From NCBI RefSeq assembly GCF_009914755.1, contig NC_060928.1: DNA of 64,000 nucleotides; one strand, written 5' to 3'. Origin of the DNA: the human T2T-CHM13v2.0 reference genome, Homo sapiens. Positions 4,901 through 14,300 of this stretch are shown here, in pieces (positions within the stretch are counted from its first letter, which is position 1; each line of letters starts with the position of its first letter). A program made the position numbers and the translations under genes. The notes beneath the pieces are model-generated. The model saw only the letters and a list, made by a program, of their open reading frames with translations. It did not search any database and was not told the DNA's origin.

Positions 4901-5635
4901 CAAAAAATGCAACAGGTGTTCAGAAAGAATCTGAAAAATGACTATCTATGTGTATATATATGTATGTATAATTTATATCTTATATATGTATATATACACA
5001 TTTGCATATATACATATTATATATATGTTCCACATTCATTTTAAGTAATGAGAGAGAGTGGTAAGAACCATGGCTACACAGGTTTATGGCTTTTGAAAAT
5101 AGATTTTGTTGCATTCTTTGTCTTGGGATACCACTGAAGGAATTAAAGTACTAATGAACCTTAATAACCTAATCAGACTTTCCAGTTTCTTTTTTCCTGC
5201 TTGTTCATTTATTGGAGTTTGGCTAGGTTTCATCAGGGTGAGAGAGGTGAAGAGGAGAATTAAATAAACCAAGAGAGGCTGGATTACACTATTTAAGAAA
5301 AATATAGAAGGAGGTGATGAGGCAGACAGGAGCAAGTGGGAGCCTCCTTTCCTTGAAAAATACAAAGACATGAGATCATGAAGCTGGGCCTTAGAAGATG
5401 TGTCATTTTTGATCTTTCTTTTTTTATTATTATTGTACTTTACGTTCTAGGGTACATGTGCACAACATGCAGGTTTGTTACATATGTATACATGTGTCAT
5501 GTTGGTTTGCTGTACCCGTTAACTCATCATGTACATTAGGCATATCTCCTAATGCTATCCCTCCCCCATCCCCTCACCCCATGACAGGCCCCGGTGTGTG
5601 ATGTTTCCTACCCTGTGTCCAAGCGTTCTCATTGT

Positions 5636-9455
<3,820 letters not shown>

Positions 9456-9518
9456 TATGATGTTAGCTGGTTATTTTGCTCGTTAGTTGATGCAGTTTCT
9501 TCCTAGCATTGATGGTCT

Positions 9519-10542
9519 TTACAATTTGGCATGTTTTTGCAGTGGCTGGTACCGGTTGTTCCTTTCCATGTTTACTGCTTCCTTCAGGAGCTCTTGTAAG
9601 GCAGGCCTGGTGGTGACAAAATCTCTCAGCATTTGCTTGTCTGTAAAGTATTTTATTTCTCCTTCAATTATGAAGCTTAGTTTGTCTGGATATGAAATTT
9701 TGGGTTGAAAAATTCGTTTCTTTAAGAATATTGAATATTTGCCCCCACTCTCTCCTGGTTTGTAGAGTTTCTGCCAAGAGATCCGCTGTTAATCTGATGG
9801 GCTTCCCTTTGTGGGTAACCCGACTTTCTCTCTGGCTGCCCTTAATATTTTTTCCTTCATTTCAACCTTGGTGAATCTGACAATTATGTGTCTTGGAGTT
9901 GCTGTTCTCGAGGAGTATCTTTGTGGTGTTCTCTGTGTTTCCTGAATTTGAATGTTGGCCTTCCTTGCTAGGTTGGGGAAGTTCTCCTGGATAATATCCT
10001 GAAGAGTGTTTTCCAGCTTGGTTCCTTTCTCCCCAACACTTTCAGGTACACCAATCAGACATAGATTTGGTCTTTTCACATAGTCCCATATTTCTTGGAG
10101 GCTTTGCTCGTTTCTTTTTACTCTTTTTTCTCTAAACTTCTCTTCTCACTTCATTTCATTCATTTGATCTTCAATCACTGATACCCTTTCTTCCACTTGA
10201 TCGAATTGGTTGCTGAAGCTTGTGCATGCGTCACGTAGTTCTCGTGCCATGGTTTTCAGCTCCATCAGGTCATTTAAGGTCTTCTCTATGCTTTTATTCT
10301 AGTTAGCTATTCGTCCAACCTTTTTTCAAGGTTTTTAGCTTCTTTGTGATGGGTTCAAACATCCTCCTTTAGCTCGGAGAAGGTTGTTATTACCAATCAT
10401 CTGAAGCCTTCTTCTCTCAACTTGTCAAAGTCATTCTCCATCCAGCTTTGTTCCATTGCTGGCGAGGAGTTGTGTTCCTCTGGAGGAGAAGAGGCGCTCT
10501 GATTTTTGGATTTTCAGCTTTTCTGCTCTGGTTTCTCCCCAT
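9519..10542 (-). pseudogene. L1 ORF1 (RNA-binding protein), disrupted
   Basis: ATG at 10542, KRPNLCLIGVPE...QENFPNLA..., TAA at 9521-9519. Frameshifted. Confidence 0.93.
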
Positions 10543-11118
10543 CTTTGTGGTTTTATCTACCTTTGATCTTTGATGATGGAGACATACAGATGGGGTTTTA
10601 GTGTGGATGTCCTTTCTGTTTGATAGTTTTCCTTCTGACAGTCAGGACCCTCAGCTGCAGGTCTGTTGGAGTTTGCCGGAGGTCCACTCCATCCCCTGTT
10701 TTGCCTGGGTATCACCAGGGGAGGCTGCAGAACAGCAAATATTGCAGAATGGCAAATGTTGCTGCCTGATCCTTCCTCTGGAAGCTTCGTTTCAGAGGGT
10801 CATCTGGCTGTATGAGGTGCCGGTAGGCCCCTACTGGGAGGTTTCTCCCAGTTAGGCTACTCAGGGGTCAGGGACCCACTTAAGGAGGCAGTCTGTCCGT
10901 TCTCAGATCTCAAACTCTGTGCTGGGAGAACCGCTACTCTCTTCAAAGCTGTCAGACAGGGATGTTTAAGTCTGCAGAAGTTTGTGCTGCCTTTTGTTCA
11001 GGTGTGCCCTGCCCCCAGAGATGGAGTCTACAGAGGCAGGCAGGGCTCTTTGAGCTGCGGTGGGCTCCACCCAGTTCGAGCTTCCTGGCCACTTTGTTTA
11101 CCTACTCAAGCCTCAGCA

Positions 11119-11382
11119 ATGGTAGGCGCCCCTCCCCCAGCCTGGCTGCCACCTTGCAGTTCGATCTCAGACTGCTGTGCTAGCAGTGAGTGAGGCTCTG
11201 TGGGTGTGGGACCCTCCGAGCCATGCGCAGGATATAATTTCCTGGTGTGCTGTTTGCTAAGACAATTGGAAAAGTGCAGTATTAGGGTGGGAGTGTACCA
11301 ATTTTCCAGGTACCATCTGTCACAGCTTCCCTTGACTAGGAAAGGGAATTCCCCCACCACTTGCACTTCTTGGGTGAGGTGA
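11119..11382 (+). pseudogene. L1 antisense ORF0 remnant with premature stop
   Basis: MVGAPPPAWLPPCSSISDCCASSE*, then VGVGPSEP...IRVGV..FSR in the same frame, matching primate L1 ORF0. TGA at 11191-11193. Confidence 0.8.
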
Positions 11383-14300
11383 TGCCCCGCCCTGCTCTGT
11401 GGGCTGCACCCACTGTCCAACAAGCCCCAGTGAGATGAACCCAGTATCTCAGTTGGAAATACAGAAATCATCTGTCTTCTGCATCACTCATGCTAGGAGC
11501 TATAGATTGGAGCTGTTCCTATTTGGCCATCTTGGAACTTCCTCCAGACTTTCAAGTTTTAAAGACAATTCTGGAAGCAGAGTTAAGGATGGTTTGGAAT
11601 GGATAAGATTGAAGAATGTTTTATCAGTTATAAGTTTTTTGAAAAAAAATTTGAGAAAAGTGTCTAAACTACAGAAATGGTAGTAAAGATAAAATCAAGA
11701 ACAAGTATAAGAGATACTTAAGTGTAATTGCTGAATTCTCATCCTCAATTGCCAATAAGTACAAATGTGTGACATTTATGATAATATTTCAAATCTGAAT
11801 GCTTCATAACCTCTGTGCTGACTCATTAAATACTATTCCCAAATATACCTTACTCAAACCCAGAGGTTCAATAAGAGTGCATATGGCAATTAAACATGTA
11901 AATTGACTGCAACATGGTAATTTTCCTTTTAAGAATCAAAGGTGAGGGCATATCAATTAAACCAAAGCTTCTATCTTTTACTGTCATTTTTTATCAGCAT
12001 CATTGAACACTATTGTTCTACTCAGTCTACACTCTGCCTTCTGTAAGAAGTGAAAAGGTCAATCAAGCAAGGAATATGTTGAGCACATTTCACATTATAA
12101 ATGTGACCATGATTCTTTGACACCCTCTGGCCTTGCCTCTCAGTATAGCACACATTGCACAAATTCTAACTTATTTATCATGATTTATTTTACAGATCCT
12201 CTTATTTATCTCTTCAATTCAACTTTCACTGTCCCCCTCCCCATCATCTATCAAACAACTCTGAAATTCATAGTGGACCATGTTCAAATTATTTTTCATT
12301 AGACTTTTCGTCCCAAACACGTTATGGAATGGGCTCAGCTTGTGTTTTACCATTCGTGTCAATGAATAAGATACAAAATGTAAAAAGCTGGTAGGTCCAG
12401 AATACCTTGAGAATCTTTAAGGAAGACAATGTTGCCTAACTCGTTATGTTGGTCTCTCAGAGTCTCAGTGTAGGCGCTGTCAAAGTACCACTAAACTGGA
12501 TTTTAAAAGTTGGTGCTGGATTCCCATATTTTTGGCTTAAGTGATTGGATGGAGGGTAGAATCATTCACAAAGAGGTAATAAAGGCACAGATTTTTAGAA
12601 GATTTTTTAAACATTTACTCTCCAGAAGACTTAAGATTTCTCTGTAGAAATACATATCTCATCTTTTCAAAATAGATTTACAAACATGTGATTTGTCATT
12701 TACAAAATCCCTATGATGTGGGCTTCAAAGCTGTTACATATCATTCCTACTTTGTAGGGGAAAATCAACGCAAACTAAATGTCAACATTTTTAAGTGTAC
12801 ACTTACAGTTAGAAACCAGGAGTTTTGCCTTGTACTGTAGGTTTTTTTTTTTTTTTTTTTTTTTTTGCTTCTACTATATCATGCTGGCCACATTTAATCT
12901 CACATACCTAACTTTCACATTTTCCTCATTTACTTTCTAAACAATAGAACTTCTGATTGTCCTCTATCATGACTTTTTTTCAACAAGAAGGCAGTGTATG
13001 CAGGGTTAAGAGAATAATAGGTAAAGTGCAAGAAGAACAGAAGTGAAAGATACTCAGCCCCACAGACTGCATGAACTCTTCACGCTCTGTCTCTTGGTCT
13101 CATGAAATACTGTAAAATATCCATTATTTTTAATCCTATAAGTTCTACTTTTTTGTCTCTATACTCATAATGTCTTTACTACAATTTCCTTATAATAATG
13201 GATAATGCAGTGAGATCTTAACAGTTCTATATTTATTTTTGGCACTATTGATATTCAGACAAAATCCCAATCATAGGTCATAAGAGGAAATAAAAAAGGT
13301 TCATGAACTTTATTTCATGAGACATATATTTAGATGCAGACATTTTCTGTGTAATCTCTTAATATAGATTTGGAAAGAATACCTGTAAGGCCACCATATG
13401 TCTCTCGCCTTCCTCTGGCAGTCACTGCTTCAGGGATGATCTCACTCTTAGCAGTTCCTGGAAACCATCAAATGCAAAACCTGGCAGAGAAAGAGACAGT
13501 GCACTCATACCTTATAGAACAGGGGAAACAGCTTAGAAGAGTTGAATACTAGTTCATCCCAATGCCTAGACTAGTAAAATTAAGTTATGGTTAGCAAAAA
13601 CTGTCTTTTTTTGAAAGCTATTGCCAAAACATCTGGAAACTTAATAGAAGTTCCAGAAGGCTTTGACCAAATGTAGCCCTTTGTAGCTACAAAAAGTCTA
13701 TCATGAGCCTTTATAAATGATATATTAGGCTGACGCTTAGCAGTGAAAAGTTAGGATTGGTTGTGAAGGAGCCTTGCTCCTTTGTGGAGGTGCACATTTC
13801 ACTCCGCAATATCTGACTGCCGCTTCCTCCCTGAAGCTTCAGATAATAAAGAGTCCATTGTATACCTTGTGACCAAATTTAAAACAAAATAAAACAAAAC
13901 AAACATGCATATGTTCAAGCTCATCAAAAAGCATAAACACGTGCAATTTTTCTATATCAATTATGCCTCAATAATATTAAAAAACAAAAATATTCTCACA
14001 TTTGCATTTCATATTTTACCACCTAGAGCCTCATGGGTATCTTTAAATTTTGTCCACTGAATATTATGTATATATCTTCTTTTTAGAATGGTTAATTATC
14101 AATTCTTAACTTGTTTAATAAATAAATAAATACTAAAATATAATGCTAAAACCATTGTAAATCTTTGTAGAATGTAATGCTGGAGTTCAAAAGTTGAATC
14201 AATCAACTGACCTTGAAGTCATGTTTCTGATTCTCAAAACATGCATTTGATTATTATGAACCTCAAATTTCACAAGTTTGTATGTGAAAGAAATCAGATT

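What the first reader, a model, noticed from the sequence alone, without database searches (positions are those of the whole stretch)
5174..5414. Hidden ~220-bp 3' transduction carried by the full-length L1
Seen: there is no TSD next to the L1 poly(A) at ~5415. The 5'-flank sequence cagactttcaagttt (11545-11559, followed by a TTTT/AA site) recurs as cagactttccagttt at 5174-5188 (14/15 match). It is followed by a second T-tract (5190-5195), and a minus-strand AATAAA (tttatt, 5208-5213) lies 12 nt from that tract. Joining the outer flanks gives continuous L2-like sequence (ccactgaagg…aatcagacttt…ttttaaagacaattctggaagcagag…ggatggtttgga). Inference: 5196-5414 is foreign DNA copied from downstream of the source L1. 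It looks like unique local sequence but is a tag identifying the progenitor element.
Basis: partly seen in the sequence, partly recalled or inferred. Interest (0 to 1): 0.7.

Follow-up and report, generated by a model that had tools for sequence, protein, structure and literature searches.

The report
L1 copy tags a vanished parent
This full-length L1 jumping gene carries 223 bases that match one spot 135 Mb away on the same chromosome; no parent L1 sits at that spot today, so the tag likely records a parent element that was lost, an ordinary and known kind of event.

Summary
Window 5196-5418 (223 bp) lies between two poly(A) tracts, inside the L1's target-site duplication (14/15). It matches one other CHM13 locus, chr4:26,497,423-26,497,645, with 13 ungapped mismatches; no sibling was found. 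The twist: the donor holds no young L1. Homology stops at a TT/GAAA endonuclease-type site, and an older repeat runs unbroken across that point, so the donor is an intact empty site and the window holds the copy. The donor has AATAAA and a GU-rich downstream tract. Tag divergence (5.4% non-CpG) matches the L1's distance to its kin (6.0%). Most likely a source L1 sat there about 22-30 Myr ago (assumed clock), read through, spawned this copy and never fixed. Three more traced tags on same-age L1s also lack a parent (one less secure), so this is ordinary. 'Parentless' transductions are described in dogs. The claimed L2 continuity could not be confirmed. Verdict: real; new member of a known kind; interest 0.27.

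The parts
5174..5188 (.). Target-site duplication, copy at the 3' end of the insertion (to 5189 if 16 bp)
   Evidence: 14/15 match to 11545-11559
5190..5195 (-). Outer poly(A) remnant (A6), added at the downstream cleavage site
   Evidence: Sequence; donor reads differently here and homology ends
5196..5418 (-). Transduced segment, 223 bp, copy of chr4:26,497,423-26,497,645
   Evidence: 13 ungapped mismatches in 223; only other match in CHM13
5208..5213 (-). AATAAA poly(A) signal, intact in the donor too, 12-14 nt before the cleavage point
5399..5418 (+). First 20 bp of an older dispersed repeat that continues at the donor but is cut off here by the L1 poly(A); fixes the direction donor to window
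5419..5425 (-). Inner poly(A) remnant (A7), the tail of the inferred source L1
5426..11544 (-). Full-length primate L1, 6119 bp, 5' UTR 1002 nt (ORF1 ATG at 10542), reading frames broken; L1PA4-6 class, L1PA5 plausible
   Evidence: Colinear with full-length kin at 91-92%; longest stop-free stretch 224 codons; ATG position; subfamily label recalled
11545..11559 (.). Target-site duplication, copy at the L1 5' end (to 11560 if 16 bp)
11557..11562 (+). TTTT/AA L1 endonuclease motif of the insertion site
   Evidence: Sequence

Best explanation
Window 5196-5418 is a 223-bp copy of chr4:26,497,423-26,497,645 enclosed with a full-length L1 in one target-site duplication, likely carried as a 3' transduction from a source L1 that likely never fixed and is absent from that locus today. 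Shown: the TSD and TTTT/AA site; the order L1, A7, 223 bp, A6; one donor locus in the same orientation; AATAAA and a GU-rich tract at the donor; homology starting at a TT/GAAA site; an older repeat intact across that site; equal divergence of tag and L1. Inferred: (1) a source L1 inserted at the donor's TT/GAAA site on the minus strand; (2) RNA polymerase II read through its weak poly(A) signal and the RNA was cleaved 12-14 nt after the flank's AATAAA; (3) the RNA was inserted full-length by target-primed reverse transcription at chr4:161.27 Mb, about 22-30 Myr ago on an assumed clock; (4) the daughter fixed, while the filled donor allele was lost by drift or selection and left the ancestral empty allele. 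The tag has no proposed function; it is a fossil marker.
For: One donor at 94%, with homology ending exactly at the two poly(A) tracts. No L1PA at the junction: the only L1-like DNA in 19 kb is a truncated fragment at 67-69% identity more than 600 bp away. The junction is TT/GAAA; TT/RAAA occurs at 0.23% of positions in donor regions. The older repeat is unbroken across the junction: 13 of 25 copies examined align across it, 9 with no length change, 3 with -1, 1 with +5. Divergence: tag 12/221 non-CpG (5.4%), L1 to 9 kin mean 6.0% K2P. Controls: tags on L044 and L048 trace to single donors (93%, 94%) with no young L1 and junctions TTTT/GAAAA and TTTT/AAAA; L046 gives a less secure fourth, TC/AAGA. 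In dogs a parentless transduction was resolved to a dimorphic source L1 (PMC13103737, passages).
Against: The source L1 itself is not seen, and no other primate genome could be searched. No duplicated TSD trace lies at the donor; this fits a never-filled allele but equally a precise excision. No sibling insertion was found. The TSD has 1-2 mismatches and both poly(A) tracts are short. An A-rich start would also favour a template switch. The tag's divergence has a wide interval (about 3-10%).
Confidence: 0.8

Rival explanations
1. Same transduction, but the source L1 did fix and was later removed precisely, by recombination between its TSDs or by gene conversion, in the human lineage.
For: A precise excision leaves the same clean site that is seen.
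Against: Precise loss of fixed elements is rare (recalled), yet 4 of 4 traced tags lack a parent (one less secure). Loss of unfixed alleles explains that more simply.
Confidence: 0.07
2. No L1 ever sat at the donor. Reverse transcription began on a cellular RNA that ended at the donor's poly(A) site and then switched, or the RNA was ligated, to the poly(A) of an L1 RNA.
For: The donor has AATAAA and a GU-rich downstream tract, so it could end a cellular transcript. The cDNA end is T-rich and could pair with poly(A).
Against: The passages I read on L1 chimeras describe the cellular RNA 5' of the L1 part (10.1101/2025.02.02.635956); here it is 3'. A switch does not need pyrimidines just outside the junction, yet TT, TT, TT and TC stand there in the four traced cases.
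Confidence: 0.08
3. Reverse direction: the 223 bp are native to the window, and the chr4:26.5 Mb copy is an orphan transduction from this L1.
For: The window has an L1 next to the segment and the other locus has none.
Against: The 26.5 Mb locus has no poly(A) tract at the boundary, its older repeat continues across the junction, and the window's displaced TSD would be unexplained.
Confidence: 0.02
4. A small DNA-level duplication (repair patch or segmental duplication), with the L1 inserted separately.
For: Both loci are on chromosome 4.
Against: Homology is bounded by an endonuclease motif and a poly(A) cleavage site and does not extend into either flank. No TSD lies next to the L1's own tail.
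Confidence: 0.03

Closest known systems
'Parentless' LINE-1 3' transductions in dogs (PMC7980453; PMC13141329; PMC13103737; review PMC13756887; passages read)
   Same: The tag maps to a locus with no adjacent L1 (17 of 18, and 24 of 27, in the dog sets); explained by a source allele that is not fixed; one case resolved in another dog's assembly.
   Different: The dog cases are dimorphic and recent, and the parent may still segregate. This one is about 6% diverged from its donor, so the parent is probably extinct.
Human L1 3' transductions and transduction families (PMC9311842; PMC6425141; Hoyt et al. preprint 10.1101/2021.07.12.451456; passages read)
   Same: Read-through to a downstream AATAAA with a GU-rich element; length near the reported mean of 206 bp (PMC9311842); TSD around L1 plus tag.
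   Different: Those catalogues trace tags to existing or polymorphic sources. Here no source is present and there is one member only.
L1 chimeras with U6, Alu or mRNA (10.1101/2025.02.02.635956; passages read)
   Same: One retrotransposition event joins L1 and non-L1 sequence within one TSD.
   Different: The non-L1 part lies 5' of L1 in those; here it is 3', after an internal poly(A).

Membership tests
L1 3' transduction | One TSD encloses the L1 and the extra 3' sequence | tested here: met
   14/15 at 5174 and 11545; score 12, reached by 0 of 150 random stretches
L1 3' transduction | Endonuclease motif at the insertion site | tested here: met
   TTTT/AA at 11557-11562
L1 3' transduction | Poly(A) after the L1 and a second poly(A) after the extra sequence | tested here: met
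   A7 at 5419-5425 and A6 at 5190-5195, both short
L1 3' transduction | Poly(A) signal shortly upstream of the cleavage point, downstream element at the donor | tested here: met
   AATAAA 12-14 nt upstream; GU-rich tract follows in the donor
L1 3' transduction | Extra sequence maps to another locus, with homology limited to the tag | tested here: met
   chr4:26,497,423-26,497,645; 13/223 mismatches; no extension
L1 3' transduction | Whole block absent at the orthologous site in an outgroup | not testable with these tools
   No other primate genome is held
Transduction with a traced source element | Related L1 directly upstream of the donor segment | tested here: not met
   Only a 67-69% truncated L1 fragment more than 600 bp away
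Parentless 3' transduction | Donor not adjacent to an L1 and in pre-insertion state | tested here: met
   TT/GAAA junction; older repeat intact across it in 13 of 25 copies examined
Parentless 3' transduction | Source allele found in another genome | not testable with these tools
   Needs ape and monkey assemblies or a human pangenome
Transduction family (several members) | Sibling insertions share the tag | tested here: not met
   2 matches only, self and donor; the search gives lower bounds
L1PA5 subfamily | Length, 5' UTR and divergence typical of the subfamily | tested here: inconclusive
   6119 bp, 5' UTR 1002 nt, 2.9% non-CpG difference from most kin; fits L1PA4-6 by recall only
L1PA5 subfamily | Diagnostic nucleotides against a subfamily library | not testable with these tools
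   No repeat library held
U6-type L1 chimera | Cellular RNA lies 5' of the L1 part | tested here: not met
   Extra sequence is 3' of the L1
L2 host element at the insertion site | Outer flanks align colinearly to other L2 copies | tested here: inconclusive
   No usable matches

The most novel reading that the evidence does not exclude
Fixed, 20-30 Myr old full-length L1s carry tags that point to empty endonuclease sites: 4 of 4 traced here had no parent. These tags would form a fossil map of extinct source L1 loci. A genome-wide census could measure what fraction of active ancestral L1s never fixed, a direct test of purifying selection against active elements in ancestral primates, and could name sites where apes or monkeys still hold the parent.
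Probability: 0.3. Interest if true: 0.5.

Novelty: new member of a known kind. Interest (0 to 1): 0.27.

Why it matters
For this locus alone, little: 3' transductions are common (about 10-15% of L1 insertions; PMC2768975 and PMC10883270, passages) and the tag has no proposed function. It does give the address, strand and rough age of an L1 that is no longer in the reference genome. Pipelines that demand a visible parent miss such cases. If the 4-of-4 pattern holds genome-wide, old tags would let one count source elements that were active but never fixed.

Tried and rejected
Sibling search with the tag and with 1 kb of further donor flank: only self and donor. L2 continuity of the outer flanks: genome searches returned only the window; nhmmer on 287 kb of held sequence found nothing better than E 2.7; left open. 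Residual TSD at the donor: only a chance 8-mer 51 nt apart, not abutting the junction. The old L1 fragment near the donor as source: rejected, 67-69% identical, truncated and not adjacent. Closest kin as parent or sibling: no pair among 10 elements stands out by shared changes (at most 7 sites; 4 for the window element). Controls: 12 kin were fetched; 3 (L050, L053, L055) were dropped as rearranged or incomplete; 9 were scanned over 765 bp; 2 had a clear displaced TSD, 1 a weak one, 4 an adjacent or post-microsatellite TSD candidate, 2 were unresolved. Gene context of the donor was not examined. Szak 2003, Pickeral 2000, Khan 2006 and the journal version of Hoyt 2022 were not held. Earlier scan findings were not open.

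Full report
Observation. The stated features are in the sequence. On the minus strand the order is: TSD (11559-11545), full-length L1 (11544-5426), A7 (5425-5419), 223 bp (5418-5196) with AATAAA at 5213-5208, A6 (5195-5190), TSD (5188-5174). The TSD copies match at 14 of 15 and form the longest repeat between the two ends. The 5' copy ends in TTTT/AA on the plus strand. On its own the TSD is only suggestive: it scores 12, and of 150 random window stretches none reached 12 but 5 reached 11.

Donor. A search of the CHM13 genome with 5190-5420 gave 2 matches: the window and chr4:26,497,419-26,497,645 at 94%. Without gaps, 5196-5418 differs from chr4:26,497,423-26,497,645 at 13 of 223 positions, and identity falls to background on both sides (its list of 14 includes position 5419, outside the segment). 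A search with 1028 bp of donor flank again gave only these 2, so no sibling was found; the tool warns that its counts are lower bounds. In L1 sense the donor reads AATAAA, 12-14 nt, then a GU-rich tract. That is a complete poly(A) site, and the copy stops there.

No parent. There is none. The only L1-like DNA in 19 kb is a truncated fragment at 67-69% identity, more than 600 bp away. The shared segment starts at CTT/GAAAG in L1 sense, a variant of the L1 endonuclease motif (motif recalled). TT/RAAA occurs at 0.23% of positions in the donor regions. An older dispersed repeat, LTR-like by recall, begins 20 bp inside the tag. One search listed 36 other copies and I examined 25; 12 of these I chose because their match began near the junction. 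Of the 25, 13 align across the junction: 9 with no length change, 3 with -1, 1 with +5. The donor is therefore an intact ancestral site, and the window, which has only the first 20 bp of that repeat, is the copy.

Age. The L1 is 6119 bp, colinear with full-length kin at 91-92%, with a 1002-nt 5' UTR and broken frames (longest stop-free stretch 224 codons). Its mean non-CpG distance to 9 kin is 6.0%, and the tag differs from the donor at 12 of 221 non-CpG sites, 5.4% (interval about 3-10%). Tag and L1 are of one age. At an assumed 1.0-1.3 x 10^-9 substitutions per site per year (recalled) that is about 22-30 Myr. L1PA5 is plausible but untested. L1PA5 was mobile in the macaque-human ancestor (PMC9341517, passages), so macaque may share the insertion.

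Controls. Of 12 kin fetched, 9 were usable. L044 (chr1:198.9 Mb) and L048 (chr12:99.3 Mb) have TSDs displaced by 256 and 132 nt. Their tags trace to chr14:36.82 Mb (228/244) and chr2:84.84 Mb (120/127). Neither donor has a young L1 at the junction, and the junctions read TTTT/GAAAA and TTTT/AAAA. L046 has a weak displaced TSD; its tag is mostly a multi-copy repeat, with a best donor at chr6:29.02 Mb, no L1 in the 3-kb locus and junction TC/AAGA; this case is less secure. With the window, 4 of 4 traced tags are parentless, 3 at TT/RAAA. This supports the mechanism and also shows the finding is ordinary. The sample is small and was picked by 5' UTR similarity to the window element.

Mechanism. 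A source L1 most likely inserted at the donor site, was transcribed through its own poly(A) signal to the flank's AATAAA, and the RNA was inserted full-length at chr4:161.27 Mb. The daughter fixed; the filled donor allele did not. The anatomy, donor and direction are shown. The source L1 and its loss are inferred (0.8). Precise excision of a fixed source (0.07) leaves the same site but is unlikely four times. Template switching from a cellular RNA (0.08) does not predict pyrimidines outside the junction. Reverse direction (0.02) and DNA-level duplication (0.03) conflict.

What is known. 3' transduction is well described (PMC9311842, PMC6425141, PMC2768975, Hoyt preprint; passages). 'Parentless' tags are named in dogs: 17 of 18 (PMC7980453) and 24 of 27 (PMC13141329), with one resolved to a dimorphic source (PMC13103737); all read as passages. 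Ten literature searches were by concept, not by coordinates; their listings showed no census of parentless tags on old fixed human L1s. That is weak evidence: Szak 2003 and Pickeral 2000, which studied reference-genome transductions, were not held (recalled only), and Hoyt Table S13 is a closed preprint supplement. Any of these may already cover the class or this locus.

Verdict. Observation confirmed, apart from the L2 join (inconclusive). Interpretation supported, with the correction that the tag marks an empty site. New member of a known kind; interest 0.27.

Noticed in passing
L044:6264-6507 (chr1:198.91 Mb); donor L059 (chr14:36,817,585 onward): The closest kin L1 carries its own 244-bp 3' tag with a 14/14 TSD; the donor has no L1 and the junction reads TTTT/GAAAA.
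   Followed up: yes
L048 (chr12:99.289 Mb); donor L062 (chr2:84,836,297): A 127-bp 3' tag with a 17/17 TSD; the donor junction is a canonical TTTT/AAAA site inside an older repeat, with no young L1.
   Followed up: yes
L046:6272-6410 (chr1:208.244 Mb); candidate donor L067 (chr6:29,019,124): A probable 125-bp tag made mostly of the end of a multi-copy LTR-like repeat plus about 20 donor-specific bases; weak TSD; no L1 at the donor.
   Followed up: partly
window 5174-11559: The L1 and its transduced AATAAA lie in sense within an intron of the predicted lncRNA LOC105377509 (minus strand, exon at 13383-13480). The copy lacks the donor's GU-rich downstream tract, so it is probably a weak poly(A) site.
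   Followed up: no
L002:2330-3227 and L003:1300-2210: An old, 5'-truncated L1 3' fragment (67-69% to the window L1) lies over 600 bp upstream of the donor junction, in the same orientation as the inferred source.
   Followed up: yes
L049, L054, L055, L050, L053: Several of the kin L1s fetched have internal deletions or rearrangements relative to the window element.
   Followed up: no
window 4948-5026: A degenerate (TA)n/(TG)n microsatellite lies about 150 bp outside the left TSD and accounts for the top inverted repeats.
   Followed up: no
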